Notes under the pieces: generated by a model
Told to the model about the DNA's origin: nothing
What the model saw: only the letters and a program-made list of their open reading frames with translations
The model's database searches: none
Position numbers and translations under genes: made by a program
Shown: positions 520-39,829 of the stretch, in pieces
Layout: each line of letters starts with the position of its first letter
Numbering within the stretch: the first letter of the stretch is position 1
Source: an uncultured Gammaproteobacteria bacterium
GTDB lineage: Bacteria; Patescibacteriota; Microgenomatia; Woykebacterales; RBG-16-39-9b
Direction of reading: 5' to 3'
NCBI GenBank assembly: GCA_964360785.1
Contig: CAYHXX010000001.1
Coordinates: 73,334 to 137,333, forward strand
DNA: 64,000 nucleotides

Positions 520-1658
520 TTAATCCCAATTAAAGGTAGTAAAAAATAATTATTTTGTTCTTTCACCTCACCTGCTTTTTTGATAGTTGTATCGTAATCT
601 TTCGCAAGATCTTTGTAGGATGACAGTGCTTTATTGTTTTGCCAAAAGTTTAGTTCGTGAATTGAAGTTTGTACCCCGAGGCTCTTGGTTTCGCTCACAA
701 AAGTAGCTAGTGCAGTTAATAGGTTTCCTGGATTGCTCACAGAATCAGTTTTCACAGTTTTGAAAAAATTAATAAGTAAATCAAAAACTGTAACTACATC
801 CTTATTAAGATCGTCCATTTCTGCCGGCAGTTCCTTTTTATCGTAGTTGGCAAACACATTTCTGATCTTGGTTAGGTCAGTAACTGAATTGTCGATATCA
901 TTTACCGATGTGATTGTATTTGAAATATTGTAAAGTTCGATTGCAGCATCGCTGACAGAAACATAGTATTTTGCAGTTTTGTCTGTTTCACTCAAATAAA
1001 GATCTGTCTTTTTGGTTGTTTCTTCAACATCTTTTTTGAGTAAATCTGCTCCTGAAGGTACACTACTTGTTTTCAAATGTAGCAACTTCTTCTTCAGTAG
1101 ATCTTGGGCAAGTTCTGACTTGTCAGAAATGTTTTCCGCGAGTTTTCTTTGCTGCCGAACGGCCTTGTTTGGATCGTTTTCCGGAATACTAAACCCTTTG
1201 ACCTGACTACTTCTCTCGAGCACTTCTCTTATACTTTTGAGTAGTAGCAAGGAATTTCCAGAAAGTGAGTTGGTTGCAGCAGAAGTGTTGGCAGCGAGTA
1301 CTCCAGAGTCTATTTCCGAAAGGCTTGTGTCATCCGAAGCGTTACTAGCAGTCAATGACTGGTAAAGTAGATCTAGCGATTCGTTTACGTTTTTGATTCT
1401 TGTATCTAGGGTTTCGAGTGTTTCCGCAGCGTTTGCTGCATACATCACATTTCTAGTACGTGGGATAACAATAAAACCTAAAAGTAGGACTGCTGCTAAA
1501 GAAAATATAGACAGGACAGCAACTGCAATAGGTGTCTTCTGGTTTAAATCAGTTTGGTTACTTGTTGGCACCTTTAGATTTCCAGCTGCATGGTCTGGAT
1601 GGATAAGGACCTGATTTTGAAACGTTGATTGAATTTTGGGCAAGTCAGAGGATTGCAT
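516..1658 (-). CDS. hypothetical membrane-anchored protein (N-terminal TM helix, Ser/Thr/Asn-rich extracellular region)
   Basis: 380-aa ORF with one hydrophobic helix (IAVAVLSIFSLAAVLLLGFIVI). It is translationally coupled (ATGA) to the downstream gene. Confidence 0.5.
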   Translation of the reverse strand: MQSSDLPKIQSTFQNQVLIHPDHAAGNLKVPTSNQTDLNQKTPIAVAVLSIFSLAAVLLLGFIVIPRTRNVMYAANAAETLETLDTRIKNVNESLDLLYQSLTASNASDDTSLSEIDSGVLAANTSAATNSLSGNSLLLLKSIREVLERSSQVKGFSIPENDPNKAVRQQRKLAENISDKSELAQDLLKKKLLHLKTSSVPSGADLLKKDVEETTKKTDLYLSETDKTAKYYVSVSDAAIELYNISNTITSVNDIDNSVTDLTKIRNVFANYDKKELPAEMDDLNKDVVTVFDLLINFFKTVKTDSVSNPGNLLTALATFVSETKSLGVQTSIHELNFWQNNKALSSYKDLAKDYDTTIKKAGEVKEQNNYFLLPLIGIK

Positions 1659-1760
1659 CTAGTAACTTCAATTTTCTCATACTTAGCTTGAACCTGTCAA
1701 AGGAAAAATGAAAGAAGGCAGTTCTAGGTCGCCTTCGATACCTTTCTCTTCTGCTTTCCC

Positions 1761-2483
1761 TTACCGCAACTGCCGTAGTTCTGTCCGGCATTCTCGGCAG
1801 AAGATCACTCCAACCCTTTCTTCCTCCTGGAGTTGTTCGATCCAGGTTTTGCGGTCGACTCCTTGACGCATGCAGCAAGCAGCGTTGGTGCAGTGCGTGC
1901 CCAGACTCTGCTCCACATTCCAGCCGCGGGCCGGTAGGCCTAGGACATGGCCGAACTCATGACTGGTACAACGTTGAATCAGCCGCAATCGTAGTTGCCG
2001 GTCAATCCCGGGCCGAAGGCGCGAGACGGATTCAACGTAGCCGAGTTTTGGCCATGCAGCCCCGAAGACGAAGTTGGTGTTTCCGGTGGAGCAGTCTCGG
2101 TCGAGCAGCATTACGTCGTAGTGCGGACGCTGTTGTTGGTAGGGCTCATTGGCCAAGTAGACCAGTACTTGATTGGCGTTTACTTGAGCCCCGAGGCCGA
2201 TGTCCCTTTTCGGATTGAACATCGATCGATCCTGGTACCAATCAGGACTCCCATAGTCTCCGTCCGCGATCGGCAACGAGCCGAAGACCAAGACTTGCCA
2301 GTCGAGTTCCCCTGCTCTTAGCACGTCGTGGACTCCTTCGACTGCTGCGTGTCCCTCATCACCATCGACGCCGCTGGTCCAGCTGACATAGATGGGTTTG
2401 CGTGGGAACTCACGCTTGCGTCGCTCGCTTTCGACCGTCCGGATTACCGGGGTTGGTCTGATCCGTACGATTGGTGTTGCCAT
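1761..2483 (-). CDS. archaemetzincin-like zinc metalloprotease (peptidase M54-like)
   Basis: HEFGHVLGL followed by C-x4-C-C-M and a distal CRECR pair, matching the archaemetzincin HExxHxxG...CX4CXM...CXXC pattern. NFVFGAAW precedes it. The gene sits in a high-GC (about 60%) segment with a GGGTGGGAGA SD before the ATG. Confidence 0.5.
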   Translation of the reverse strand: MATPIVRIRPTPVIRTVESERRKREFPRKPIYVSWTSGVDGDEGHAAVEGVHDVLRAGELDWQVLVFGSLPIADGDYGSPDWYQDRSMFNPKRDIGLGAQVNANQVLVYLANEPYQQQRPHYDVMLLDRDCSTGNTNFVFGAAWPKLGYVESVSRLRPGIDRQLRLRLIQRCTSHEFGHVLGLPARGWNVEQSLGTHCTNAACCMRQGVDRKTWIEQLQEEERVGVIFCRECRTELRQLR

Positions 2484-2697
2484 TCTCCCACCCTCTTGGT
2501 CTCGACCTTACGGTCGGCTACTTCCCCTATCTTCTGATTAAATCAATACTCTTCCAGTACCATCTTCTTCCAGTCAGCCAGCGCCATCTGGGTAGAAAAG
2601 GAAATTGGCGTACGTGACGGACATGCCAGTACCTGTACATGGATCATCCCCTCCACTGAAGGGGAATTATAACTCACCTAGCAATAATATTGATTCG

Positions 2698-3240
2698 CTA
2701 AGAACTTTTCCAGGGTTGGTCGGGGTGTCCCGCTGATTGGTTTTCGACTCGGGCGAGGACAAAAAACAGGTCGGAGAGCCGGTTGAGGTATTTTTTTATT
2801 TCGGGATTCACATCTTCCAAATGTGTAAGTTTTCTTTCAGTTCGTCTTGTGACGCTACGTGAAAGGTGAAAATAAGCAGCTGCACGGGAACCTCCAGGTA
2901 ATATAAATTGGTTTAGTTTTGGTAACACGTTTTCGAACCGATCAATATATTTTTCAATTTCCACAACGTCAGAGTCCTTCAAATTGAAAGAAGCAGTGCT
3001 ATCACCTGCTTTCTCTGGGTTGGCCAGTTCGGCTCCGATCTCAAATAACTTATTTTGTATCTGCTGGACGATTTGTTTTATTTCTTCGCTCCCCGTCTCA
3101 GAAGCGCAGACTCCTAGAGTCGCATTTATTTCGTCGACACTACCGATCACCTCTATTCGCGGATCTGACTTTTTGACCCTTTTGCCCCCAAATAAAGAGG
3201 TTTCCCCGCTATCGCCAGTCTTAGTGTAAATTTTTACCAT
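2698..3240 (-). CDS. ATP:cob(I)alamin adenosyltransferase, PduO type
   Basis: N-terminus MVKIYTKTGDSGETSLFGGKRV is the hallmark of PduO/MMAB-type adenosyltransferases; length 180 aa. Confidence 0.8.
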   Translation of the reverse strand: MVKIYTKTGDSGETSLFGGKRVKKSDPRIEVIGSVDEINATLGVCASETGSEEIKQIVQQIQNKLFEIGAELANPEKAGDSTASFNLKDSDVVEIEKYIDRFENVLPKLNQFILPGGSRAAAYFHLSRSVTRRTERKLTHLEDVNPEIKKYLNRLSDLFFVLARVENQSAGHPDQPWKSS

Positions 3241-4769: not shown

Positions 4770-5300
4770 ATGTCCAAAGAAATATTGTTAAATGAAACGA
4801 ACCTTAGTCTAGTTACGATCCTAATAATTGCAGTACTCACTTGGGTGGCGCTTCAAATCTTTACCAAAGCCTTGGTTGATCGGATTACAGTCGGGACTCC
4901 GAGAGGAAGACGATTTCACACACTGAGTAATGTTTTTAAAGCTTTTGTCTCGGCGTTGATCTTAGCTTTCTCAGTCTTTGAAACACTTAAGGTTTTGGGT
5001 TTTGATCTAGCTCCTTTTTTGGCAAGTGCTGGAGTAATCGCCTTGGCGATTGGGTTTGGTTCGCAAGCCTTGGTCAAAGATATTGTCAGCGGATTCTTTT
5101 TGCTGGCCGAGGATCAGTTTTCTGAAGGTGATGATGTCGAGATAGCGGGAAAACGTGGTATAGTTGAGAGGATGAACATAAGGACAGTTTATCTACGTGA
5201 TAAGGATGGGATACTGCACCTGGTACCCAACGGTGCCATCAGTGTTGTATCCAATTTTTCCAGACAGAAAAAGACAATTAAAGAGAAAGGGCCCCGATGA
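4770..5300 (+). CDS. small-conductance mechanosensitive channel (MscS family)
   Basis: TM helices followed by GFGSQALVKDIVSGFFLLAEDQFSEGDDVEI, the conserved MscS pore/beta-domain region. Confidence 0.75.
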   Translation: MSKEILLNETNLSLVTILIIAVLTWVALQIFTKALVDRITVGTPRGRRFHTLSNVFKAFVSALILAFSVFETLKVLGFDLAPFLASAGVIALAIGFGSQALVKDIVSGFFLLAEDQFSEGDDVEIAGKRGIVERMNIRTVYLRDKDGILHLVPNGAISVVSNFSRQKKTIKEKGPR

Positions 5301-5707
5301 AAAAAATACTTTTAGTGGAAGATGATGTGTTTATTCGAGATATCTATGGACGGGAGTTGAAAAAAGGAGATTATCAGGTAGATATTGCTGAGGATGGTGA
5401 ATCAGGGGTTGCCAAATCAACATCTGTAAAGTACGACATCCTCCTGCTTGATATCATGCTCCCAAAAAAGACTGGGATTGATGTCTTGCGTGAACTTCGT
5501 GCTGCACCAGCACCATATAAAGACACTCCAGTTTACCTCCTGACCAATCTCGGTCAAGGGTCGATCATCAAACAAGCTGTCGATATCGGTGCTCAAGGGT
5601 ATCTTCTCAAAGCCCGTTTCTTACCTTCACAGGTTCTTGAAACAGTCGACCGTTTCTTTCGTGAAGGCCCAATGAAGATCGATCTTAAAGAATTTGGTTT
5701 GGAATAA
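5297..5707 (+). CDS. stand-alone response-regulator receiver domain (CheY-like)
   Basis: MKKILLVEDD...ILLLDIMLPKKTGIDVL...LLK carries the phospho-acceptor and conserved Lys pattern. No output domain. ATGA overlap with the MscS gene. Confidence 0.8.
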   Translation: MKKILLVEDDVFIRDIYGRELKKGDYQVDIAEDGESGVAKSTSVKYDILLLDIMLPKKTGIDVLRELRAAPAPYKDTPVYLLTNLGQGSIIKQAVDIGAQGYLLKARFLPSQVLETVDRFFREGPMKIDLKEFGLE

Positions 5708-5709
5708 AT

Positions 5710-5940
5710 TTAGTTGCCGGTTGTTCGGTAAAGAGTAAAAATTGACGAAAAAGTTATCAGGTAGAAAATAATAGTTAACACCCCAAAAACCACTAAACCA
5801 ATAATCCAGATCTTGGTTTTCTTCTTTTTAATAGAACTAAACAGGTAGCCACTCAAAAAGAAAATCGCCAGAAAAAGAAAAACTCCGCTAAGGAACGAAA
5901 AGTTTCTAATAAAACCAAGTAAGGTAGAAATATCAACCAC
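5710..5940 (-). CDS. small hypothetical membrane protein (GTG start)
   Basis: 76-aa ORF with two hydrophobic helices. Start-codon context is weak. Confidence 0.3.
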   Translation of the reverse strand: MVDISTLLGFIRNFSFLSGVFLFLAIFFLSGYLFSSIKKKKTKIWIIGLVVFGVLTIIFYLITFSSIFTLYRTTGN

Positions 5941-6020
5941 CCCCTAATTGTATGGCTTTTAATGGGGCTACGCTACACAGTTATACAACTATAGGTTGAC
6001 AGTTTCGTAGAAATTACTGA

Positions 6021-6068
6021 ATGCTATAACCTATAGCATTTGACTTTTGAAGCTAAATATGCTACACT
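6021..6068 (+). promoter_or_regulatory. sigma70-like promoter (TTGACT-17-TACACT) preceded by the perfect palindrome ATGCTATAaccTATAGCAT
   Basis: TTGACT at 6040-6045, a 17-nt spacer, TACACT at 6063-6068. The 8-bp inverted repeat at 6021-6039 abuts the -35. It is an AT-rich element in front of a high-GC gene. Confidence 0.45.
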
Positions 6069-6133
6069 GGTTTCAGTAAAAAGGCAGTCGTGTGACTGTT
6101 CTTTTTTGTACTCTACAAGGAAAGGAGTTTGCC

Positions 6134-6928
6134 ATGCCCGCCCGTGGCAAAAGACCACCAAACCCACCCAGTGCTTGCCGTCACAACAAGGCAGCTGGAC
6201 CGCTCGCCGTTGGTCTCTACCTCGCGATGTTGGTTCTGCTGATGGTTGGTGCCTCGATGTATTTCAGGTACCACACAGAGTGGCAGCGATACCAGCAGCT
6301 GCGGAACTTCTTCGGGGCCCTCGCCCAGAATAACGCGGAGGCCTCCGTCGGAGTTCCAGTTGAAGAAAGCCCTCAGGCTATCTTCAATATAACTCCTGAG
6401 TGTCGTGAGCAGTGGGACAACTACATGGAAGGCCACACTTTCTTGTACGAACCGCAGCGGTTCGGGCATCGGGAGTTTGGACTTCCAGACATCTCGTTCA
6501 CGGAGGACGAGAAGAACTGGTTCGAGGCCTTGGGTTGCAGCGAGTCGAAGTATCACCACTTCGATCCGGATAACAATCCATACGCGGCCACAGATCACGA
6601 AGGACGACCTTTGATCACCTCAGGGGCCGGCTGTGTCAGCATCTACCAAGGGTGCAACCTCAGCATTTGTCCTAAGGAGCTGTGGAGCGAGCTCAAGACC
6701 AACATCTGGTGCGGAGCCAAGCTCTTCCGTCAGCTGTTGGACCAGTTCCCAGGCGATATGGACATGGTCCTCGCCTGTTACAAGGACGCCGTGGTGAAAA
6801 TCGATACGGATGGGGATGGCTATAAGGAAACCTACGTCTATGACCAGGTGACCGGAAATGTCATCCCCGACCCCGAACTCGATTGGCAAGTCCAGACGGT
6901 TAGGGATTTGGTAACAAAAGTTCCGTAG
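6134..6928 (+). CDS. lytic transglycosylase-like protein (SLT domain) with N-terminal TM helix
   Basis: ES...SGAGCVSIYQ and ACYKDA resemble the SLT catalytic Glu-Ser, GLMQ and AYNAG motifs. The likely start is MPARGKR after the RBS AAGGAAAGGAG; the ORF track began it at an upstream ATG at 6092. The segment is about 58% GC. Confidence 0.45.
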   Translation: MPARGKRPPNPPSACRHNKAAGPLAVGLYLAMLVLLMVGASMYFRYHTEWQRYQQLRNFFGALAQNNAEASVGVPVEESPQAIFNITPECREQWDNYMEGHTFLYEPQRFGHREFGLPDISFTEDEKNWFEALGCSESKYHHFDPDNNPYAATDHEGRPLITSGAGCVSIYQGCNLSICPKELWSELKTNIWCGAKLFRQLLDQFPGDMDMVLACYKDAVVKIDTDGDGYKETYVYDQVTGNVIPDPELDWQVQTVRDLVTKVP

Positions 6929-6942
6929 TAGTACAGCGTCGG

Positions 6943-6976
6943 GTGTGGTGAGAATAAAGCGAATCATTCGCTCTCA
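6943..6976. terminator. nested hairpin (GGTGAGA..GCGAAT c ATTCGC..TCTCACC) between convergent genes
   Basis: 7-bp outer and 6-bp inner inverted repeats seen directly. No strong U-tract, so function as a terminator is uncertain. Confidence 0.35.
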
Positions 6977-7027
6977 CCCGCCCGGCGTCTCTGTTTCTAA
7001 TACTCTTTTTACTCCAAATTTATTTTC

Positions 7028-7858
7028 CTAAGTTGTAGTCGGCGTCGATTCTGGTGTTGGAGCAGCAGGTGCTAGTTCAGGTGCTGGTTCTGGTGCTGGT
7101 TCTGGTGTTTGAGTCGGTTCTGGTACCGCCGCTACAGGTGCTGGAGCGACTGGTGCCGCAGCAACAGGGGCTGGGGCTACTATGCTACCCGAGAGTTTTC
7201 GGTATGCAAAAGCATAAGCTATCATAATAACAGGGATTGCAACAAACAAACCAACTAGTAGCGCTAGTGCCCCAGCAATTGCAATCAGTCCGGAAACTAC
7301 TCCTAAGAAAACTAGATTCCACCAATTTCCTTTGGTAATTTCATAGCTAGACTTGATTGCATCGATTGGCCCAGCTTTCTTGTCAACCACAACATAGGTT
7401 GTCATACTAAGTTTTACTGCTAAGTAGATTCCCGGAATTATAAAAAATAAAAATCCAGCCAAGACTATTAAACCTTCTAAAATTGAAGCTCCAATATATT
7501 TAAGAGCCAATGGATACTGTTGGTACAAATCTTTAAGGTCACCTTTTTTGCCGTCAACAAAATCAAGAAAAATTTTCATCATGCCAATTGAAATCAGAAG
7601 ACTGATGATTGTAGATATGACATTAAGTAAGGTAACTATAGCTGGATTACCAGCAAAAACCCCTTCTTTGGTTTGTTGATATTGGGTACTTCCAACGTTA
7701 ACGTAAACATTCGTTTCTCCAGTAAGCCAAGACACCAGAAAACTAACTCCAAATTGAAAGATACCTAAAATCACGACAAGAATAATAAAAAAGCCCACAT
7801 TTTTCTTGAATGTTTCCCAACCAAATGCTAAAGCTTCTGAAATAGAAAAAGTATTCAT
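7028..7858 (-). CDS. polytopic membrane protein with Pro/Ala-rich C-terminal tail
   Basis: Several TM helices and a C-terminus APAPVAAAPVAPAPVAAVPEPTQTPEPAPEPAPELAPAAP, encoded by tandem GGTGCTGGTTCT units. Confidence 0.55.
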   Translation of the reverse strand: MNTFSISEALAFGWETFKKNVGFFIILVVILGIFQFGVSFLVSWLTGETNVYVNVGSTQYQQTKEGVFAGNPAIVTLLNVISTIISLLISIGMMKIFLDFVDGKKGDLKDLYQQYPLALKYIGASILEGLIVLAGFLFFIIPGIYLAVKLSMTTYVVVDKKAGPIDAIKSSYEITKGNWWNLVFLGVVSGLIAIAGALALLVGLFVAIPVIMIAYAFAYRKLSGSIVAPAPVAAAPVAPAPVAAVPEPTQTPEPAPEPAPELAPAAPTPESTPTTT

Positions 7859-7951
7859 TTGAATAAATTCCTCCTTTAATATAAGTCTGAGCTGTTTATG
7901 AGTGGCCTGTCAAGAGAAATTCTGCATTATAAGATACTTTTTGTTCATGAT

Positions 7952-9175
7952 TTACTCGTAACGAAGTGCGTCGATTGGGTGTTTTCGTGATGCACCAATT
8001 GCGGGAATAATCCCAAAGATAATACCCACAAAACCAGAAAACCCTAGTGCCAAAAGCAAAACCGTTGGTTCAAGTTTGATTGGAATTGGAGAATTTTCTG
8101 GAATCAAAGTTACAATTGTGGAAAAGATAGCGATGGCAAGTAGACCACCAACCAGAGTTAGTATCATACTTTCAATCAGAAATTGCAGTAGGATGGCTCC
8201 TTGAGTAGCACCGACAGCCTTGCGGATTCCAATTTCCCGTGTTCTTTCGCTGACCGAAACGAGCATAATATTCATAATTCCAATCCCACCGACAAGAAGT
8301 GAAATTGCCGCAAGTGCACCAAGCAGCGCCGTTACTGTATCTAGAATTCCTCCAGTAACTTGAAGCAAATCTTCCTGGCTCAACACTGTAAAGTCTTCTT
8401 CTCCCTTGTGGGTTTTGAGCATAACTTGTTTTACTTCCTTTTTAATTTTATCTACGGAGTCAGCATCCGGAGCTTGCATCGCGATTCGGAAAACTGATTT
8501 TGTGTTGGTTAGCTCCCAGCCAGTGTGTATTGGCATCATGATAACGTCATTAAAGTCCGGGCCACCGAGGTTGGAGGCAGTTTCAACAGTGTTAAAAATA
8601 CCGACAACTGTAAATTCAGTTGAGCGAATTTCCAAAGTTTCTCCCAGCGGGTCGGAACTACCAAAAAGTTTGCTAACTGTTTTTGGACCAATCACCACAT
8701 TTTTTGCCTTTAAATCATCATCAGCGCTTGTTAGTAGTCGACCTCGGTTTAAACTAAGATTGAATATTTCTTCAAATCCACTAGAGCCGGCCAAAATAGA
8801 AGCCGTATCAGAAGTTTTGTTGCCAACACGAGAGGTTCCGGAGAGCAAAAGTGCGACAGAAATCTTTTTGGCATCTTTGACATCGCGTTTAATAGCGAGA
8901 AAATCCTCTTCGGTTAGGGTGCTTTGGCCAAACTGGGCGGTCAAGTTTGTACCACCATCTTCACTAAATTGTCTTCCGGGAGTGACGGCTACCAGATTTG
9001 TCCCGAGATCGGTGATAGAAGTCTCAACCTCGGAACGTACCCCGAATGCTAGAGAAAGCAAACTGGAAATCGTCAGAATGCCAATAACTATTCCCAACAT
9101 TGAAAGAAAGCTACGAGCCTTCTTTGAAAGCAATGATGCAATGGCCATTCTGATGCTGTCGACTAATAAGTTCAT
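7952..9175 (-). CDS. ABC transporter permease, MacB/FtsX-like
   Basis: N-terminal TM helix, a large periplasmic domain and a C-terminal FtsX-type four-helix region. The start overlaps the ATPase gene end by 4 nt. Confidence 0.85.
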   Translation of the reverse strand: MNLLVDSIRMAIASLLSKKARSFLSMLGIVIGILTISSLLSLAFGVRSEVETSITDLGTNLVAVTPGRQFSEDGGTNLTAQFGQSTLTEEDFLAIKRDVKDAKKISVALLLSGTSRVGNKTSDTASILAGSSGFEEIFNLSLNRGRLLTSADDDLKAKNVVIGPKTVSKLFGSSDPLGETLEIRSTEFTVVGIFNTVETASNLGGPDFNDVIMMPIHTGWELTNTKSVFRIAMQAPDADSVDKIKKEVKQVMLKTHKGEEDFTVLSQEDLLQVTGGILDTVTALLGALAAISLLVGGIGIMNIMLVSVSERTREIGIRKAVGATQGAILLQFLIESMILTLVGGLLAIAIFSTIVTLIPENSPIPIKLEPTVLLLALGFSGFVGIIFGIIPAIGASRKHPIDALRYE

Positions 9176-9828
9176 ACTAGCCTCCCATCATTCAACTTAA
9201 TAATCCGATCAGTTTTTTCGGCCAAGGAGTTGTCATGCGTGACGAGTATTACTGTTTTTCCTTTTGAATTTAATTCTTTCAGAAGCTGAAAAATAGCTTC
9301 TCCCGTTTTGCTGTCAAGGTTACCGGTTGGTTCATCAGCCAAAATAATTTCCGGATCGTTAACCAAAGCTCTAGCAATCGAAACCCGTTGTTGTTCCCCA
9401 CCGGAGAGTTGGTTCGGTTTGTTACCTAGTTTTTCTTTAAGCCCAACTTCGGAAAGAAGTTCAACTGCTTTTAATTTCCGGTTAACTTTCTTGTGTGTAT
9501 AAATCAAAGGCAAGATTACGTTGTTTAGACTATTAGTTCCTTGCAAAAGATTGAAGAATTGAAAGACAAAACCAACCTTTTCATTCCGATATCTAGCTAG
9601 TTGCTTGCCGTTTAATTCACCTAAGTTTTGCTCATCGACAACTATCGTTCCACTTGTTGGCTGATCAAGACCGCCAATTAGGTGCATGAGAGTTGATTTC
9701 CCACTTCCCGAGGGGCCAAGAATGGCAACGAACTCACCTTTCTGGATTTTGAGAGAAATATTTTCAAGGGCTGTGAAAGTAGTTTCGCCGGTTTTGTAAG
9801 TTTTGTGTAGGTTGGAAATTGTGATCAT
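9172..9828 (-). CDS. ABC transporter ATP-binding protein (MacB/LolD-type)
   Basis: Walker [10 protein letters not shown], signature [15 protein letters not shown] and Walker [12 protein letters not shown]. Confidence 0.9.
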
Positions 9829-9896
9829 GAAAGGTTATTTTAGGGGTTGGAGACAGTTTATTCAAGGAAAGAAATTAACTTTCTTTTAAAATAGTG

Positions 9897-9924
9897 AAGG
9901 GAAGCGCGCAGCAGATGACGCTTC
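9897..9924 (-). terminator. hairpin GGGAAGCG-N12-CGCTTCCC followed by a U-rich tract on the minus strand
   Basis: Perfect 8-bp inverted repeat immediately downstream of mini-peptide C. Confidence 0.45.
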
Positions 9925-15223: not shown

Positions 15224-15267
15224 TAGGACGAGGTCATGACATAAATGAGGGAAGAGAGATGAAACAT

Positions 15268-15300
15268 AAAAGCCGCTTTCGAGTACTCGGGGCGGTTTTT
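15268..15300 (+). terminator. probable terminator hairpin + T tract after the DegV gene
   Basis: AGCCGCTTTCGAGTACTCGGGGCGGTTTTTCTTTTT, an imperfect stem followed by a T-run. Confidence 0.4.
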
Positions 15301-15307
15301 CTTTTTG

Positions 15308-15632
15308 AAAAAAAGACGAAGGTGGAAAGAAATATCCACTCTAAGACCGGAGGAGACCAATCCAGAGCGTTGTCTTCCCAGCGAGGTTGGGTTTTCTCGC
15401 TCAGAACTATGGCTGTTCCACCTTCGTGCGAATGATCTCAAGTACGGGTCCTTCGACGGGCGACTCCTTGGGTATTCTCGTCTGTTCCTACCTACAGCGG
15501 GCACTCCACTCTAGAGTCGTTTGCTCGCTGTCCCCTTGGCGTTAACCCTTACTCACCTCCGCTTGACTGGAGTGCTGGTCGCCAGGATCGGTTGCGTCTC
15601 CCCTACTTCCGATTCATCGAAGGACCCGTGGG
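15308..15632 (-). ncRNA. rnpB: candidate RNase P RNA (rnpB)
   Basis: The minus-sense sequence contains GGGGAGACG, GGUUAACGCCAAGGGGACAGCGAGCAAACGACUC and, about 129 nt later, GAGCGAGAAAACCCAA. These resemble the conserved bacterial RNase P RNA motifs ACAGARAGCAAACC and GAGCRAGAAACCCAAA in the correct order and spacing. An upstream TTGCGC-17-TATAGT promoter sits on the same strand, and there is no credible ORF. Ends are approximate and the P1/P4 pairings were not resolved by eye. Confidence 0.45.
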
Positions 15633-15801
15633 AAAACTATAGAACTTTTGTAGCTTTGGCGCAAGTGAATATTATTCGGTTAAATTTTCGGTTTGTTACA
15701 GATTGATAGGATTGACAATTTCGTCTATGTTTCGGATTATTAGAGTGTCAAGTTACAAGTTTCACGTATCAAGAATTTTACAAATTTGAAAACGCTGACA
15801 C

Positions 15802-17004
15802 ATGCCACACACTACTTCGAAACGCTCTTCCTGGATGCATCTGGACATGGACTGTTTCTTTGCATCTGTCGAAATCAAACTAAACCCTTCACTCAAAGGT
15901 AAACCTGTATTAGTTGGTGGTGTTAATCCCCAAGGAAAAAATGTTCCTCGCGGAGTGATCGCGACGGCTTCCTATGAAGCCCGGAAGTTTGGTTGCAAAT
16001 CGGGAATGCCGCTTTATCAAGCTTTGAGACTGTGCCCAAACGCTGTCGTGGTCGGTGGGCACTATGAGGACTACATTGCGTGTTCTGACCAAGTCATGGA
16101 GATTTGTGCTCGCTACGCTCCGCGAGTTAAGCAGATCGGTATTGACGAAGCTTTCTTGGATTTTTCTAACACTGAGATTCTGTATTCCGATCTGAAAATA
16201 GTTGCTGAACAGATCCGTGCGGATATAAAAAAAGAGCTTGGTATCACTGCTTCGATTGGACTAGCGGCTACTAAAGTTTGTGCCAAAGTCGCCTCAGATT
16301 TTCATAAACCAGATGGTTTTACCTATGTTTCAGAAGGTTCTGAGAAGAGTTTTCTCGCTCCCCTACCACTGCGGGATTTACCCGGAATTGGACATAAGAT
16401 GGAAGAGTATTTCCATCGCTTGGGTGTCAAAACTCTGGGAGAATTAGCAGCAGTTCATTTTAAAAATATTGAAAATTGGGGCAAGTTTGCGGTCAATTTG
16501 TGGGAAGCTGCCAATGGAGTTGACAACATTTGGTTTACCCCGCACGTTGAAGTTAAATCTATCTCTCGTAGCGAAACTTTTTATCGTGATACACCTGACG
16601 AAGACTTTATCCTGGCGATGCTACGCAAACTGACTGAAAGTGTGGGAACTGAAGCTCGCACTGCGGGTTATCAGGGACGCACAGTTCACGTCACGATCCG
16701 TTACAAAGATTTTCGGACACTTAGTCGCCAGCGAGTTCTTACTTCCCCGACAAATGTGACCAAAGAAATCTATGATTTGGGTGAAACTCTGCTCAAAGAA
16801 CTTTGGGACTCTCGGACACCGTTGCGGTTGGTCGGAATTGGCTTAACCCAGTTTGGGGAAACGATTCAGCAATCTTTGTTTGGCAGAGAGCATGACAAAA
16901 GATTGGAGTTGGAGAAAAGAATAGATACGCTCAAGGAAAGGTTTGGCAAAGAAGCAGTTAAACCCTTATTCCTTCTTTACCTAAATTCCAGTGTCAGACA
17001 CTGA
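15802..17004 (+). CDS. dinB: DNA polymerase IV (Y-family, DinB)
   Basis: HLDMDCFFASVE is the catalytic DMD motif. Thumb and little-finger region conserved. The start could instead be the internal ATG at 15835. Confidence 0.85.
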   Translation: MPHTTSKRSSWMHLDMDCFFASVEIKLNPSLKGKPVLVGGVNPQGKNVPRGVIATASYEARKFGCKSGMPLYQALRLCPNAVVVGGHYEDYIACSDQVMEICARYAPRVKQIGIDEAFLDFSNTEILYSDLKIVAEQIRADIKKELGITASIGLAATKVCAKVASDFHKPDGFTYVSEGSEKSFLAPLPLRDLPGIGHKMEEYFHRLGVKTLGELAAVHFKNIENWGKFAVNLWEAANGVDNIWFTPHVEVKSISRSETFYRDTPDEDFILAMLRKLTESVGTEARTAGYQGRTVHVTIRYKDFRTLSRQRVLTSPTNVTKEIYDLGETLLKELWDSRTPLRLVGIGLTQFGETIQQSLFGREHDKRLELEKRIDTLKERFGKEAVKPLFLLYLNSSVRH

Positions 17005-17067
17005 AAACTATAGACATTTTAATCCAACAGCATCTTCTGCAGACTGATGTCTTTTTGGTAGTTAATT

Positions 17068-17595
17068 CTAGAATTGACAAATTCTTTGTAATCTTCCACT
17101 GGACCTTTTTTCGAGAAATAAGCAAGTTAACCTCTCATCAACGAAACTCATTTCCTCTATTCCTAAGTAGTGTCTATAACTAGTCCAAGGATATTCCTCT
17201 GGTTTCTTTACTAAGCCTGCACTACTCGGATTCAAATGAATGTAACGGCTAAGATGAACCAAATATTCATCAGTTGTTACATCAACATGCTTAAAGCGAG
17301 CTTCAAACAGATGCCCGGTTCGGTGATAACGCAGGTTAAAATAGTTTGCGTAGGCTGTAGTCAAAGTTTGCATGAATCTAGAAAGTGATAGATCAGAGTC
17401 TTGTCTTACAAGTAAGTGTATGTGATTGGGCATAAGAACAAAGGCTAGAATGCGGATCAAGAATTTATGGGAGTATTTACTTAGGTTAAAGGTAAACCTT
17501 ATAAAATCCCCATCATCAATAAAAAGATTCTGGTGATTAGCCCGACTGGTTAAATGGTAAATTGAATTTCTAAGGAAAATTCTTGGGGGTCTCAT
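17068..17595 (-). CDS. HUH tyrosine transposase, IS200-like/RAYT (COG1943)
   Basis: HUH motif VLMPNHIHLLV and catalytic-Tyr helix SRYIHLNP. About 175 aa. The ORF track's GTG start at 17610 overlaps a REP copy, so the ATG at 17595 is preferred. Confidence 0.8.
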   Translation of the reverse strand: MRPPRIFLRNSIYHLTSRANHQNLFIDDGDFIRFTFNLSKYSHKFLIRILAFVLMPNHIHLLVRQDSDLSLSRFMQTLTTAYANYFNLRYHRTGHLFEARFKHVDVTTDEYLVHLSRYIHLNPSSAGLVKKPEEYPWTSYRHYLGIEEMSFVDERLTCLFLEKRSSGRLQRICQF

Positions 17596-17675
17596 ACCTG
17601 TGTCTGACACTTAATACTATAAACATATTAGCTTTAAAAGTGCTTGTCAATACAGGTTAAACTAGTATTATTTAG

Positions 17676-17691
17676 TGTCTGACACTGGTTA
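17676..17691. repeat. REP-like palindrome CAGTGTCTGACACTGG (five copies in the window)
   Basis: Copies at 16989-17004 (inverted), 17597-17611, 17676-17691, 21693-21706 (degenerate AGTGTCTGGCACTG) and 23357-23372. All were found by reading the sequence. Confidence 0.7.
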
Positions 17692-17702
17692 GTTGAAAAA
17701 AG

Positions 17703-17740
17703 GTGCCGGCAAAGCTTTGGGGGCAGTGCCGGCGTGGATA
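17703..17740 (-). terminator. terminator after the SAM decarboxylase gene (GCCGGC-N17-GCCGGC + UUUUUU on minus sense)
   Basis: Minus-sense CGCCGGCACTGCCCCCAAAGCTTTGCCGGCACCTTTTTTCAA. Confidence 0.5.
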
Positions 17741-17777: not shown

Positions 17778-18200
17778 TCAGCTTCCTACTGTCGCCGCTA
17801 CTTCTATCCGCTCGTCTCGGTTGAGCGGGATGCTCTGCGCGACGTCGTGCGGGTACTCCAGACCGCGCTCAAGCTTGTGAGTACGAGTATCCTGCAGCTC
17901 GAAAGCATCAACGATTCGCTCGATTGCGGGAAGCTCGTCGAAGCCCTTGCAGCTGAAGATGTCGACCCACACCTGTCTGTGCTCTGGGAACGTGTGGACG
18001 GCGATGTGGCTCTCGGCGATGAGCACAAAGCCAGACACGCCCCAGTCATCTGGGTTGTCTCCACGGTATTCGAAGACATGTGGCTCCGAGATCTTCGTCA
18101 TCCCGATCTCTGTCGGGTAGCGGTCGAGCAGGTTGCGGACCCGTTCTTCGCTACCGAGCAAAGCCGCGTTTCCGCCAAACCCATCGATCGTTACGTGCAT
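17778..18200 (-). CDS. speH: S-adenosylmethionine decarboxylase proenzyme (SpeH/class 1b)
   Basis: FVLIAESHIAVHTFPE is the self-processing Glu-Ser site region of pyruvoyl SAM decarboxylases. 140 aa, about 58% GC, SD GGAGGGACGAC before the ATG. Confidence 0.75.
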   Translation of the reverse strand: MHVTIDGFGGNAALLGSEERVRNLLDRYPTEIGMTKISEPHVFEYRGDNPDDWGVSGFVLIAESHIAVHTFPEHRQVWVDIFSCKGFDELPAIERIVDAFELQDTRTHKLERGLEYPHDVAQSIPLNRDERIEVAATVGS

Positions 18201-21656: not shown

Positions 21657-21737
21657 CCCTCAAGAGTCAAGTATTAGTTGGGTTCGAATTTAAGTGTCTG
21701 GCACTGTGCCTAGGGTCTGATCCTAAAATAAGTGATT

Positions 21738-21760
21738 ACGTCGCACAATGGTTGTTTTTT
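21738..21760. repeat. direct repeat ACGTCGCACAAT-(TTG.TTTTTT), copy 1 (copy 2 at 22368-22390)
   Basis: An identical 12-mer plus a similar T-rich tail flank the 21793..22338 gene on both sides. Confidence 0.6.
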
Positions 21761-21792
21761 TGTTCTAATTTAGTTAAAGTTTATTAAGCAAT

Positions 21793-22338: not shown

Positions 22339-22417
22339 CTTTAGTAAGCATAGAAACATACACTTCCACGTCGCACAATATTTGCTTTTTTAGCCTCCGT
22401 GCTGTTAAAATTTATAT

Positions 22418-23341: not shown

Positions 23342-23382
23342 CCTAAATTATAGTCTCAGTGTCTGACACTGGTTGGAAAAAG

Positions 23383-37276: not shown

Positions 37277-37873
37277 ATGAAGCTCCCTAAATTGCTCTCC
37301 GTACTAGTTATCTGTTTTGTGGCTGTGGTTATCTCTGTTTTTCTTCTCAACCCATCTGACCGAGCAAAACAAACAAGGGATCAACAGAGAATCACTGATT
37401 TGGAGCAGTTGAAGAAAGCACTGGATTATTTTCTCACCAAAAACGCGAAAACAAGTTCTGACACTGAGAAAATTCTCTGTACTGATTGCGATCTGGCTAG
37501 AGACGTGTTTTCTTATAGAAAGCTCGAATTGGCAGGGATAGAAACTAAAGAGCGCCACGGAAGATACGTTAATGGTACCGGTTGGATACCAATAGATTTC
37601 TCTGCCAATATGAGGATCGGTGAGACTCCCCTCTCGTTGCTTCCAATTGACCCGTTGGAAAAAGGTTATAGTATTAGAAAAACATTTCCAATTGTTAGTT
37701 TGTTTTCTACTAACAATGAAGACTACATTTATACTTTTCGGCCAGCAAAAAATGGTAAATACAAGCTCACTGCAAAGTTGGAGAGCAAAACCGGCCTTGA
37801 GAAAGCCAAAGACGATGGTGGTACATTGGACGATCGTTTTGAAATTGGTTCCGATTTAGACTTAAAACCTTGA
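37277..37873 (+). CDS. pilin-like protein with a non-canonical N-terminus
   Basis: Has the post-TM motif RDQQRITDLEQLKKALDYF shared by GspG-like pilins and a C-terminal DP...Y.Y pattern, but lacks the GFTLIE prepilin site. Confidence 0.45.
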   Translation: MKLPKLLSVLVICFVAVVISVFLLNPSDRAKQTRDQQRITDLEQLKKALDYFLTKNAKTSSDTEKILCTDCDLARDVFSYRKLELAGIETKERHGRYVNGTGWIPIDFSANMRIGETPLSLLPIDPLEKGYSIRKTFPIVSLFSTNNEDYIYTFRPAKNGKYKLTAKLESKTGLEKAKDDGGTLDDRFEIGSDLDLKP

Positions 37874-38706
37874 TGATTACATTTTATTCAACAGTTTTCT
37901 TTATTTTTGGTGCTTGTATTGGCTCTTTTCTGAACGTTGTGATATTGCGTACCCATGAGAAAAAGACTCTCGATGGGCGTTCCCGTTGCCCACATTGCAA
38001 ACATGAGCTACAAACCCTTGATCTTATCCCGATATTTAGTTACCTTGCGCTGCAGGGTAAATGCCGCTACTGCAAACACAAACTTTCAATTCAGTACCCG
38101 CTGATTGAGCTAACCACAGCGATCTTGTTTACAATTGCTTTTCTCGTTTGGGGTCAGACCCTGACAGAAGAGGGTCTGACCCCAGTAAGTTTAATTGCCT
38201 TTTTATTTTCCTTATTCTTAATCTCAGTTCTGATTGTAGTTACAGTTTATGACCTGCGCTGGGGATTGATTCCTGACAAAATAGTGGTTCCCGCTTCCCT
38301 TACTGCAGTCTTTTACACCTTATTTAAATTTGGTTGGTTATTGTTTACAGATCCCAACCGTATGACCACATTGATTGATCTTGGAGTTTATTTGCTGCTA
38401 GTATTAGGAGTAGGTGGTTTCTTTGCTACCCTGATTGTTGGCACCAAAGGAAAAGGTATGGGTGGTGGCGATCTGAAGTTGTCGGTCTTTATTGCCCTTG
38501 CCTTGGGTTTTCCTCTGACGATCATAGCCTTACTTCTAGCTTTCTTGACAGGGGCCGTAGCCTCAGTTATACTTTTACTATCAGGCAAAAAAGGATTTAA
38601 GAGTCAGATACCATTTGGTCCTTTCTTAGCCCTTGGTGCCCTACTATCAATGATATTGGGCACAAACCTCTGGAGTGCGTACTTGCAAATGTTAGGGTTT
38701 AATTGA
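37870..38706 (+). CDS. pilD: prepilin peptidase PilD (A24 family)
   Basis: N-terminal zinc-binding CPHCKHEL...CRYCKH and catalytic Asp regions (VYDLRWG..., GGGDLKL). Confidence 0.85.
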   Translation: MMITFYSTVFFIFGACIGSFLNVVILRTHEKKTLDGRSRCPHCKHELQTLDLIPIFSYLALQGKCRYCKHKLSIQYPLIELTTAILFTIAFLVWGQTLTEEGLTPVSLIAFLFSLFLISVLIVVTVYDLRWGLIPDKIVVPASLTAVFYTLFKFGWLLFTDPNRMTTLIDLGVYLLLVLGVGGFFATLIVGTKGKGMGGGDLKLSVFIALALGFPLTIIALLLAFLTGAVASVILLLSGKKGFKSQIPFGPFLALGALLSMILGTNLWSAYLQMLGFN

Positions 38707-38836: not shown

Positions 38837-39283
38837 ATGATCGATCGACTTCGCTCTCACCTCAAGTCTGAAAAAGGGTTTACCCTTATCGAACTTTTGG
38901 TCGTAATTGCGATTATCGCTATTCTTGTGGTTATCGTCGTTGTAGCTATCAACCCAGTTGAAAGACTTCGGGAAGCTTCAGACCGACGGGCAGCAGCCAA
39001 CACTCGTTCAGCTGGTACCTTAATCAGCACATGTATTACTCGTGCTTTGTCTGGAGCAGGTGCAACTGCGACACTGACTGACTGTGAGTCTATTAATGCT
39101 GTAAATGCTGTTGGAGAGGGTAACTGGCCAGCAACAGCTTCCTATGCTGATGACAATGTAGCAGGTACTCCACCGACCAACATTTGTGCAATCGAGCAAG
39201 GACGTGCAGCTAGATTCTACAGATATCAAAGTGTAACTGGAGAGGTAGATGCCACTGCAACTAGTTTAACTGACTGTCCTTAG
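38837..39283 (+). CDS. type IV pilin (major pilin candidate 1)
   Basis: Prepilin signal ...SEKG|FTLIELLVVIAIIAIL with Glu+5. Cys pair in the C-terminal domain. Confidence 0.8.
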   Translation: MIDRLRSHLKSEKGFTLIELLVVIAIIAILVVIVVVAINPVERLREASDRRAAANTRSAGTLISTCITRALSGAGATATLTDCESINAVNAVGEGNWPATASYADDNVAGTPPTNICAIEQGRAARFYRYQSVTGEVDATATSLTDCP

Positions 39284-39348
39284 AGTCTTTGTAGGTAACA
39301 CCCAGATTAATTGTAATAACTTATAAAATTGTTGCAATTAATTTAAAA

Positions 39349-39816: not shown

Positions 39817-39829
39817 ATAAGGAGATTTT

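What the first reader, a model, noticed from the sequence alone, without database searches (positions are those of the whole stretch)
16989..17691. REP-like palindrome family with a RAYT/IS200-type transposase framed by inverted copies
The 16-mer CAGTGTCTGACACTGG, or its exact reverse complement, occurs at 16989, 17597, 17676, 21693 (degenerate) and 23357. The copies at 16989 and 17676 are perfect inverses of each other. They bracket a single HUH Y1 transposase gene (HIHLL, YIHLNP), the classic arrangement of REP-associated tyrosine transposases. A REP/RAYT system is unusual in a small streamlined genome. It also marks the insertion points of other accessory genes, such as the SAM decarboxylase beside it.
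Basis: seen in the sequence. Interest (0 to 1): 0.6.

Follow-up and report, generated by a model that had tools for sequence, protein, structure and literature searches.

The report
RAYT-like transposase cassette behind dinB
A small single-gene cassette, a RAYT-like HUH tyrosine nuclease bracketed by its own short DNA palindromes, sits in the tail of the DNA polymerase IV gene of a groundwater Patescibacteria-type bacterium. It is a real but fairly ordinary member of a known, poorly studied class, here flipped in place and partly decayed.

Summary
The palindromes are real and far beyond chance. The core GTGTCWGACAC occurs exactly at 16991, 17600, 17675 and 23359, and a degenerate copy sits at 21689-21706. 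Three copies bracket one HUH/Y1 gene (17068-17595, minus strand).

By sequence, motifs (NHIH, F-E/Q, YIHLNP) and predicted fold, the protein is closest to E. coli TnpA-REP, not IS200. It matches the REP-less "TIRYT/TIRtron" branch (Quentin subclass 2.1, Bertels Group 1). There is no GTAG tag, and only two solo copies lie in 63 kb outside the cassette.

Relatives (33-77% identity) are each flanked by their own palindrome: 39 of 66 loci, against 2-3 in controls. Usually there are no further copies within 10-20 kb.

In at least five related lineages the cassette lies at the 3' end of dinB. In three of them the displaced native dinB tail (…MYLKN*) sits just beyond it. Two relatives have an empty site.

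In this window the cassette is inverted exactly between its outer palindromes. The gene also carries a frameshift that replaces the last 37 residues.

The SAM decarboxylase is conserved in relatives and is not palindrome-linked. A genome-wide copy count could not be obtained.

The parts
15802..17004 (+). dinB (DNA polymerase IV) gene. Its last 5 codons and its TGA stop (..SSVRH*) are encoded by palindrome A.
   Evidence: Pfam IMS, IMS_C and IMS_HHH. C-termini of 30 homologs compared. Native tails in cassette-free relatives end ..LMYLK(K/N)*.
16988..17014 (-). Palindrome unit A: TATAGT-ttt-CAGTGTCTGACACTGG on the minus strand. It is the copy downstream of the Y1 gene and is now abutting dinB because of the inversion.
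   Evidence: DNA hairpin -4.7 kcal/mol, z -2.5.
17019..17126 (-). Out-of-frame remnant of the conserved C-terminal tail of the Y1 protein (LAYFSKKGPVEDYKEFVNSRINYQKDISLQKMLLD*). The ancestral stop is at 17019-17021.
   Evidence: Three-frame translation compared with P0001, P0002, P0003 and P0005. The stretch 17000-17700 is identical in five other contigs, from five samples.
17068..17595 (-). HUH/Y1 gene as it now reads: 175 aa, with HUH = H58-I-H60 and catalytic Tyr in Y118-IHLNP. A frameshift after about residue 153 replaces the last 37 conserved residues.
   Evidence: AlphaFold model of the 74%-identical full-length relative P0002 (pLDDT 91) matches 4ER8 best.
17597..17621 (-). Palindrome unit B: TATAGT-atta-AGTGTCAGACACAGG on the minus strand, ending 1 nt before the ATG. 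It is a direct repeat of unit A.
   Evidence: A and B align over 37 nt in the same orientation. The same layout is seen in L127, L229, L226 and L227.
17622..17650 (-). Sigma-70-like promoter of the Y1 gene (TTGACA-17-TATGTT), lying between palindromes C and B.
   Evidence: A TTGACA/TTGACT box sits at the equivalent place in L127, L130, L134, L229 and L227. Consensus match only; function is inferred.
17672..17688 (+). Palindrome C (TTAGTGTCTGACACTGG), the outer upstream copy. It is inverted relative to A and B. With B it forms a roughly 100-nt REPIN-like hairpin.
   Evidence: The stretch 17590-17696 folds at -18.1 kcal/mol, z -4.8.
17689..17703 (+). TTAGTTGAAAAAAGG: probable degenerate remnant of the displaced native dinB tail (..YLKN*). 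It is followed by the AdoMet_dc terminator hairpin.
   Evidence: Compared with the intact displaced tails in L227, L127 and L229, and with L226. The similarity in the window itself is weak.
21689..21706 (-). Degenerate solo copy D (CAGTGCCAGACACTTAAA), in the divergent intergenic region upstream of the M23 peptidase gene.
   Evidence: 2 mismatches to the 18-mer; 0.06 matches expected. Absent at the syntenic place in L127.
23349..23372 (+). Solo copy E (TATAGT-ct-CAGTGTCTGACACTGG), 15 nt after the stop of the xerC-like gene. Its flanks resemble the outer flanks of A and C.
   Evidence: Absent downstream of xerC in L127, L224 and L226.
38150..38183 (+). In-frame inverted doublet of the sister palindrome (GGGGTCAGACCCT-N8-AGGGTCTGACCCC) inside the prepilin peptidase gene. 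It encodes WGQTLTEEGLTP.
   Evidence: GGGTCWGACCC is the palindrome that flanks the dinB-site Y1 gene in L226.

Best explanation
Window 16988-17688 (701 bp) is a 'TIRtron'-type cassette. It holds one gene for a class-2 HUH/Y1 single-strand-DNA nuclease/transposase, a RAYT relative of the REP-less TIRYT branch (subclass 2.1, Group 1). The gene has its own promoter and is bracketed by copies of its cognate near-perfect palindrome.

Layout:
- Two copies, B and A, flank the ORF as direct repeats. Each has a conserved TAKAGT 3-5 nt from the hairpin foot. This resembles the left and right ends of IS200/IS605 elements.
- A third, inverted copy (C) pairs with B into a REPIN-like hairpin of about 100 nt.

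Inferred mechanism, by analogy with TnpA-REP and IS608: the protein binds the palindromes as hairpins in single-stranded DNA. It cuts and rejoins nearby with its HUH-coordinated metal and its tyrosine. This would occasionally move the cassette or palindrome-only derivatives.

Shown history:
- The cassette entered the 3' end of dinB in an ancestor of this genus-level group.
- It was co-inherited with dinB.
- In this genome it was inverted exactly between its outer palindromes.
- It acquired a frameshift that removes the conserved C-terminal tail.
- It left a few solo copies (D, E).
For: Protein class:
- Pfam Y1_Tnp.
- NCBIfam REP_Tyr_transpos 74 bits against IS200 22 bits.
- PDB sequence hit to 4ER8 only.
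- Foldseek: 4ER8 at E 2.9e-8, TM 0.65/0.75 over 168 columns; IS200/IS608/ISDra2 at TM 0.44-0.47 over 110-130 columns.
- Motifs NHIH, F[EQ] and YIHLNP match the row for subclass 2.1 in Table 1 of PMC6006769.

Cognate palindromes:
- The same core flanks the 58-77% identical genes in L127, L130, L134 and L229.
- L226 and L227 use GGGTCWGACCC / GGGCCWGGCCC. These changes are mirror-symmetric and keep the palindrome.
- In 39 of 66 loci the up- and downstream flanks share an exact repeat of at least 12 nt, against 2 of 66 shuffled and 3 of 39 shifted controls.
- The published TIRYT motif GGGGWSAS lies 37-106 nt upstream of the gene, in the forward orientation, in 21 of 63 relatives (mostly -50 to -90). 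It is 5.8-fold enriched in the flanks (PMC3733652).

Mobility and history:
- The cassette lies between rpmF and recG in L130, while that site is empty in L135 and in the window.
- It lies among pilin genes in L134.
- It lies after dinB in the window, L127, L226, L227 and L229. That site is empty in L224 and L222.
- Window 16982-17688 aligns inverted to L229 2088-1382 at 76% identity. The adjoining dinB aligns collinear at 74%.
- The displaced native dinB tails lie downstream of the cassette.

Frameshift.

Solo copies absent from syntenic sites of relatives.
Against: - No activity is shown. Every mechanistic step (hairpin binding, cleavage sites, strand transfer) is by analogy.
- The protein lacks the C-terminal HTH domain and the roughly 238-aa length typical of subclass 2.1.
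- The window's palindrome matches GGGGWSAS at only 6 of 8 positions.
- Single hairpins are weak as DNA (-2 to -5 kcal/mol). With a 1-nt centre, the palindromes could equally be duplex binding sites for a dimer.
- Genome-wide copy number is unknown, so a larger REP-like family cannot be excluded.
- The roughly 30-nt duplication of the dinB tail is not what a Y1 single-strand mechanism predicts.
Confidence: 0.72

Rival explanations
1. Canonical REP/RAYT system. A domesticated, single-copy RAYT maintains an abundant genome-wide family of REP/REPIN sequences, of which the five copies here are a sample.
For: - RAYT-like sequence and fold.
- Inverted copies bracket the gene, and the B-C pair is REPIN-like.
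- Solo copies D and E exist outside the cassette, and E lies at a gene 3' end.
- A sister-variant doublet lies inside pilD.
- L141 shows several dispersed copies of its own palindrome.
- The cassette co-diverges with dinB, which fits vertical inheritance.
Against: - There is no GT[AG]G tag at the hairpin foot.
- The W-Q/E motif used for tag recognition is replaced by F-E/Q (PMC6006769).
- The score is below the NCBIfam equivalog cut-off (74.3 against 80).
- Only 2 solo copies lie in about 63 kb.
- Most relatives with 10-20 kb of flank have just the two bracketing copies.
- Bertels Group 1 flanking 16-mers average about 12 per replicon, against 57-140 for REP-associated groups (PMC5581495).
Confidence: 0.13
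2. An ordinary autonomous IS200-type insertion sequence. A roughly 700-bp element with subterminal hairpins transposes as a unit, and the solo palindromes are MITE/PATE-like deletion derivatives.
For: - The unit is compact at 701 bp, the same size as IS200.
- Direct repeats A and B flank the ORF on one strand.
- The location differs between Woykebacteria-like genomes, with empty sites seen.
- E carries sequence resembling both outer flanks of the cassette.
- The family profile hits the N-terminal half of ISDra2 TnpA at E 4e-6.
Against: - The Y motif is Y-x3-NP, not Y-x3-Q.
- The NCBIfam IS200 model scores 21.9 against a cut-off of 55.
- The fold and the C-terminal extension match TnpA-REP better.
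- Every homolog looked up sits in one context per population. No second copy lies in 64 kb, and no tnpB partner is present.
- Nucleotide divergence of the cassette equals that of dinB (76% against 74%). This argues for long residence rather than recent transposition.
Confidence: 0.1
3. The palindromes are host regulatory sites (an operator for a dimeric regulator, or terminators) that happen to surround the gene and have nothing to do with the Y1 protein.
For: - The palindromes are nearly perfect with a 1-nt centre, which suits a duplex dimer site.
- B overlaps the 5' end of the transcript, and C lies just upstream of the -35 box.
- E and A lie at gene 3' ends.
Against: - The palindrome travels with the Y1 gene to three different genomic contexts.
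- It changes in step with the protein lineage.
- It is absent from cassette-free relatives L222 and L224 over 13 kb each.
- No T-run follows the hairpins.
Confidence: 0.03

Closest known systems
TIRYT / TIRtron (Di Nocera et al. 2013, PMC3733652), which equals TnpA-Y1 subclass 2.1 (Quentin et al. 2018, PMC6006769) and RAYT Group 1 (Bertels et al. 2017, PMC5581495)
   Same: - HuH NH[x]H, F-Q/E in place of W-Q/E, and the Y motif Y[IV]HLNP.
- Low copy number.
- The gene is bracketed at a fixed distance by inverted repeats that are partly or wholly self-complementary.
- Many relatives carry the published GGGGWSAS motif, mostly 50-90 nt upstream of the gene.
- The repeats occasionally form small dispersed families.
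   Different: - The protein is shorter (192 aa full length, 175 here) and has no C-terminal HTH/DnaA_C domain.
- The palindrome in this lineage is the variant AGTGTCAG.../GTGTCWGACAC.
- It is found in Patescibacteria-type genomes, which were not sampled in those surveys.
- It is resident in the dinB 3' end with a duplicated gene tail.
E. coli TnpA-REP (RAYT, PDB 4ER8) with REP/BIME (REPtron; subclass 2.2, Group 2)
   Same: - Best structural and only single-sequence PDB match.
- The HUH and Y..NP catalytic core.
- A C-terminal extension beyond the IS200 core.
- The gene is flanked by inverted palindromes, some paired as doublets.
   Different: - 14% identity.
- No GTAG tag.
- The palindromes are short and nearly perfect, without bulges.
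- No evidence of hundreds of copies.
- The cassette position varies between related genomes.
IS200/IS605 TnpA elements (IS200, IS608, ISDra2; subclass 1.1)
   Same: - HUH/Y1 fold.
- A unit of about 700 bp with hairpins near both ends on the same strand.
- Conserved bases 5' of the hairpin foot that could serve as guide sequences.
   Different: - The Y motif is not Y-x3-Q.
- It fails the IS200 NCBIfam model.
- There is an extra C-terminal region.
- It is single-copy and co-diverges with the neighbouring host gene.
- There is no tnpB.

Membership tests
TnpA-Y1 class 2 (RAYT in the broad sense) | HUH motif plus catalytic Tyr in a Y-x3-NP motif | tested here: met
   H58-I-H60 and Y118-IHLNP are invariant in alignments A1 and A2. 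The class-2 signature is taken from PMC6006769.
TnpA-Y1 class 2 (RAYT in the broad sense) | Fold closest to TnpA-REP, including the C-terminal extension | tested here: met
   The model of P0002 (pLDDT 91) has 4ER8 as top hit, at E 2.9e-8 over 168 columns. IS200-type TnpAs come second with 110-130 columns.
TnpA-Y1 class 2 (RAYT in the broad sense) | NCBIfam NF047646 REP_Tyr_transpos at or above the curated cut-off (80 bits) | tested here: not met
   74.3 bits. The frameshifted tail may cost some score. Full-length relatives were not scanned.
Canonical REP/RAYT (REPtron; subclasses 2.2, 2.4, 2.5; Groups 2 and 3) | 5' GT[AG]G tetranucleotide at the foot of the hairpin | tested here: not met
   The bases 5' of the stems are TAGTTTT, GTATTA, TATTT and TAGTCT in the window, with similar sequences in relatives.
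Canonical REP/RAYT (REPtron; subclasses 2.2, 2.4, 2.5; Groups 2 and 3) | Abundant dispersed extragenic copies (tens to hundreds) of the flanking 16-mer | tested here: inconclusive
   Two solo copies lie in about 63 kb of the window. Most relatives have none within 10-20 kb.
Canonical REP/RAYT (REPtron; subclasses 2.2, 2.4, 2.5; Groups 2 and 3) | Conserved W-Q/E (W94, Q95 of E. coli TnpA-REP), linked to GTAG recognition | tested here: not met
   The aligned position reads L-F-E in the window and L-F-Q in relatives.
TIRYT / subclass 2.1 / Group 1 | Motif set NH[VYF]H, FQ (or W[EQ]) and Y[IV]HLNP | tested here: met
   NHIH, F-E (F-Q in most relatives) and YIHLNP, set against Table 1 of PMC6006769. 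Ile as the middle residue is a minor departure. The published HMMs were not available.
TIRYT / subclass 2.1 / Group 1 | Gene flanked by terminal inverted repeats, many carrying GGGGWSAS at a fixed distance | tested here: met
   Flank repeats in 39 of 66 loci. GGGGWSAS lies 37-106 nt upstream in the forward orientation in 21 of 63 relatives. The window's own repeat is the 6-of-8 variant AGTGTCAG at -85. The L226 repeat AGGGTCAG matches 7 of 8.
TIRYT / subclass 2.1 / Group 1 | C-terminal HTH-type domain (Bac_DnaA_C, HTH_23 or HTH_28), median length about 238 aa | tested here: not met
   Pfam finds only Y1_Tnp. The full-length form is 192 aa. A few more distant hits (P0070, P0095) do carry PF13384.
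IS200/IS605 TnpA (subclass 1.1) | Y-x3-Q motif and NCBIfam NF033573 at or above 55 bits | tested here: not met
   The motif is YIHLNP. The score is 21.9 bits.
IS200/IS605 TnpA (subclass 1.1) | Several near-identical copies per genome | tested here: inconclusive
   One copy in 64 kb. Each homolog is found in one context.

The most novel reading that the evidence does not exclude
The cassette is a site-specific Y1 element that integrates into the clamp-binding tail of dinB and provides, or forces the retention of, a substitute tail. In this genome the frameshift at about residue 153 removes a tail equivalent to the autoinhibitory C-terminus of E. coli TnpA-REP, where the Delta152 truncation is hyperactive (PMC3479197). 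The resulting de-repressed nuclease would have caused the in-place inversion and the lineage-specific solo copies D and E. That would be a natural example of REP-like repeat birth in a minimal genome.
Probability: 0.12. Interest if true: 0.55.

Novelty: new member of a known kind. Interest (0 to 1): 0.33.

Why it matters
Subclass 2.1 / TIRYT proteins are the largest RAYT-like group. No activity has been shown for them, and one survey reported no associated repeats.

This locus and its relatives give a clean comparative series: filled, empty, inverted and frameshifted states at one site, and mirror-symmetric changes in the palindrome. Together these tie such proteins to short cognate palindromes. 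They also show the cassettes persisting and rearranging in very small Patescibacteria-type genomes.

The series offers defined substrates for a first biochemical test. Beyond that, it is an expected kind of selfish or semi-domesticated element.

Tried and rejected
- Genome-collection scan with the 15-mer CAGTGTCWGACACTG. The pattern was too short for 596 Gb.
- Look-up of P0007, the 101-aa call on the 497-kb NCBI contig, found nothing.
- Extending the window through edge genes gave about 1 kb or less of new sequence at either end.
- Rfam on the window, L127 and L224 gave only a tRNA and a sub-threshold chance hit.
- Palindromes as terminators: rejected, because no T-run follows them.
- Exact insertion boundaries of solo copy E: not definable. 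The intergenic DNA after xerC does not align between the window, L127, L224 and L226.
- Independent insertions as the explanation for the opposite orientation in the window: set aside in favour of an in-place inversion. L229 aligns end to end with the inverted segment at the same identity as dinB.
- SAM decarboxylase as a palindrome-linked accessory insertion: rejected.
Full report
OBSERVATION. The palindrome family is real.
- The exact 16-mer CAGTGTCTGACACTGG occurs at 16988-17003 (minus strand) and 23357-23372 (plus strand).
- 17673-17688 differs at one base.
- The 11-nt core GTGTCWGACAC is exact at 16991, 17600, 17675 and 23359. It has one mismatch at 21694.
- Shuffles give 0.00 expected matches for the 16-mer and 1.08 for the core.
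- The degenerate copy is significant as an 18-mer: 2 mismatches, against 0.06 expected matches at up to 3 mismatches.
- I label the copies A (16988), B (17597), C (17673), D (21689) and E (23356).
A and B are direct repeats over about 37 nt, each preceded on the minus strand by TATAGT. C is inverted to both. E shares about 55 nt with the C side.
- B and C together fold into a hairpin of about 100 nt (-18.1 kcal/mol, z -4.8). Single units fold only weakly.

THE GENE.
- ORF 17068-17595 (minus strand, 175 aa) is a Pfam Y1_Tnp protein with HIH and YIHLNP.
- NCBIfam scores it 74.3 bits on the REP-associated tyrosine transposase model (cut-off 80). It scores 21.9 on the IS200 model (cut-off 55).
- Alone, it hits only E. 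coli TnpA-REP (4ER8) in the PDB.
- A family profile hits the N-terminal half of ISDra2 TnpA and the whole core of 4ER8 at similar E-values.
- An AlphaFold model of the 74%-identical full-length relative P0002 (pLDDT 91) matches 4ER8 best, at E 2.9e-8 and TM 0.65/0.75 over 168 columns. IS200-type TnpAs follow at TM about 0.45 over 110-130 columns.
- Relatives are 192 aa long. The window's gene departs from them after about residue 153. The conserved tail LAYFSKKGPVEDYKEFVNSRINYQKDISLQKMLLD* is encoded in another frame, ending at 17019-17021.
- The stretch 17000-17700 is identical in five other contigs, from five samples, so the frameshift is real in the population.

WHICH KNOWN CLASS.
- Quentin et al. 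2018 (PMC6006769) divide TnpA-Y1 proteins by motifs. The set NH[VYF]H / FQ / Y[IV]HLNP defines part of subclass 2.1, which corresponds to Bertels Group 1. Here the motifs are NHIH, F-E (F-Q in relatives) and YIHLNP.
- Quentin et al. tentatively equate that subclass with the 'TIRYT' of Di Nocera et al. 2013 (PMC3733652). TIRYTs are RAYT-like genes flanked not by GTAG-tagged REPs but by inverted repeats. Many of these repeats share GGGGWSAS, some are self-complementary, and they only sometimes form moderately abundant families.
- Bertels et al. 2017 report about 12 genome-wide occurrences of flanking 16-mers for Group 1, against 57-140 for the REP-associated groups.
- I tested the repeat association on 80 metagenome loci encoding relatives of 33-63% identity, plus three further loci obtained by protein look-up.
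  - In 39 of 66 usable loci the upstream and downstream flanks share an exact repeat of at least 12 nt, usually a lineage-specific palindrome. The controls gave 2 of 66 (shuffled) and 3 of 39 (shifted).
  - GGGGWSAS lies 37-106 nt upstream of the gene, in the forward orientation, in 21 of 63 loci, mostly at -50 to -90. It is 5.8-fold enriched in the flanks.
- The window's palindrome is a variant (AGTGTCAG...) at -85.
- Features of canonical REP/RAYT are not met. There is no GT[AG]G tag, and the W-Q/E motif is missing.
- One feature of subclass 2.1 is also not met: the C-terminal HTH domain.

THE CASSETTE IN RELATED GENOMES.
- The source is a Hainich groundwater population with Woykebacteria-like relatives.
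- The same GTGTCWGACAC core flanks the 58-77% identical genes in L127/L138, L130, L134 and L229.
- L226 and L227 use GGGTCWGACCC and GGGCCWGGCCC. These are mirror-symmetric changes that keep the palindrome.
- Location varies.
  - Between rpmF and recG in L130. That spacer is 44 nt and empty in L135, and empty in the window.
  - Among pilin genes in L134.
  - Directly after dinB in the window, L127, L226, L227 and L229.
- Two equally close relatives lack it at the dinB site: L224 (dinB, then 590 nt, then AdoMet_dc) and L222 (a hydrolase instead).
- In most relatives with 10-20 kb of flank, only the bracketing copies exist. Extra copies were seen only in the window (D, E), L141 and L214.
- D and E are absent from the syntenic places in L127, L224 and L226.

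INVERSION AND THE dinB TAIL.
- In the four other dinB-site lineages the Y1 gene runs in the same direction as dinB. Only in the window is it antisense.
- Window 15827-17005 aligns collinear with L229 204-1399 at 74% identity. Window 16982-17688 aligns inverted to L229 2088-1382 at 76% identity.
- The flipped segment therefore runs from outer palindrome to outer palindrome, and it has diverged as much as dinB itself (see also for L127).
- This points to an in-place inversion of a long-resident cassette.
- Cassette-free relatives end DinB with ..IPA(S/A)LMYLK(K/N)* followed by a terminator hairpin.
- In L227, L127 and L229 that native end lies just downstream of the cassette (..SASLMYLKN*, MYLKN*, IYLKN*, each with its hairpin). 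The dinB ORF upstream carries a second, diverged copy of the tail (..PASSLYL*, ..LALLYLDPSVRQ.., ..PASLLYIPVSDTK*) and runs into the palindrome.
- In the window the tail is ..LFLLYLNSSVRH*, and its stop codon lies inside palindrome A.
- I infer that the tail is the beta-clamp-binding motif and had to be preserved. This was not tested. How a duplication of about 30 nt arose is unexplained.

MECHANISM.
- Shown: the anatomy, the association of palindrome with protein lineage, the variable location, the inversion and the frameshift.
- Inferred from TnpA-REP and IS608 biochemistry: the protein binds the palindromes as hairpins in single-stranded DNA and cuts and joins nearby. The conserved TAKAGT 3-5 nt from the foot of the two direct copies is a candidate specificity element.
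- In E. coli TnpA-REP the C-terminal extension blocks the active site, and truncation at residue 152 raises cleavage activity (PMC3479197). The window's frameshift falls at the equivalent place. Whether that made the enzyme dead or de-repressed cannot be told from sequence.

- The SAM decarboxylase is GC-rich (0.59 against 0.43 for the window). It is equally GC-rich (0.53-0.54) and syntenic in L127, L222 and L224, with or without the cassette. It is not a palindrome-marked insertion.

LIMITS.
- My one genome scan used too short a pattern.
- The 497-kb source contig could not be fetched.

VERDICT. This is a real feature and a known kind: a RAYT-like TIRtron cassette. It is a new member from a Patescibacteria-type lineage, with a tidy local history. 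Interest is modest.

Noticed in passing
window 38150-38183, inside ORF 37870-38706 (+): The prepilin peptidase gene contains an in-frame inverted doublet, GGGGTCAGACCCT-N8-AGGGTCTGACCCC, encoding WGQTLTEEGLTP. This is the palindrome variant that flanks the Y1 gene in L226. Some homologs (P0252, P0255, P0262) keep WGQ..LTPV with a different loop, and others lack it. It looks like an old intragenic palindrome insertion in a variable loop.
   Followed up: partly
window 17019-17126 (-): The Y1 gene carries a frameshift: the last 37 conserved residues are encoded out of frame. It falls at the position equivalent to the hyperactive Delta152 truncation of E. coli TnpA-REP.
   Followed up: yes
L227 6620-6700; L127 10625-10690; L229 2095-2170: A displaced copy of the native dinB C-terminal codons (..SLMYLKN*) and the dinB terminator hairpin lie downstream of the Y1 cassette. 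A diverged second copy of the tail is fused to dinB upstream of the cassette. This is a duplication of about 30 nt that a Y1 mechanism does not predict.
   Followed up: partly
window 21738-21761 and 22368-22391; L127 16099-16151: A 24-nt motif, ACGTCGCACAATGGTTG(T/C)TTT, occurs twice 630 nt apart, each time upstream of a plus-strand ORF. It is conserved in the sister genome. It may be a promoter or regulatory box.
   Followed up: no
window 17778-18200 (-): The S-adenosylmethionine decarboxylase gene has GC 0.59 against 0.43 for the window. The same excess (0.53-0.54) is seen in three related genomes, so this is an old, fixed acquisition or a compositional oddity. The gene is also more diverged (62-79% aa) than its neighbours.
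   Followed up: partly
L127 11593-11833 and L222 8636-8878: A block of about 250 nt, 79% identical, lies within long ORF-free stretches next to AdoMet_dc (1.6 kb in L127). There is no Rfam match. It may be an undescribed non-coding RNA. It is absent from the window.
   Followed up: partly
window 15224-15801: A 580-nt stretch between the DegV-like gene and dinB has no convincing ORF and no Rfam match at gathering threshold.
   Followed up: no
L069 150-270 (Acidobacteriaceae MAG, GC 0.60) and L111 1123-1160 (Planctomycetales MAG): The same palindrome CAGTGTCAGACACTG occurs as a tandem array of four units, spaced 31-33 nt apart and each followed by GGTTGGAAA-like sequence. It also occurs as a doublet 8 nt apart. 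Both are in unrelated phyla, with no Y1 gene within the 8 kb held.
   Followed up: partly
L141 2363/2399 and 9109, inside ORFs 577-3114 and 5016-9902: The palindrome that flanks the L141 Y1 gene (CAAGGCCNGGCCTTG) also occurs as inverted doublets inside the 3' parts of two large ORFs. It also occurs as a unit of about 60 nt just after the first ORF.
   Followed up: partly
L127 18386: A solo GGGTCAGGCCC unit lies here, with the flanks of the L227-type cassette (CTCTTAGTTC..GTAGG). The resident Y1 gene of this genome uses the GTGTC variant.
   Followed up: no
window 38875-39930: There are three tandem genes about 480-500 nt apart with a conserved type IV pilin N-terminal segment (repeat family D1).
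   Followed up: no
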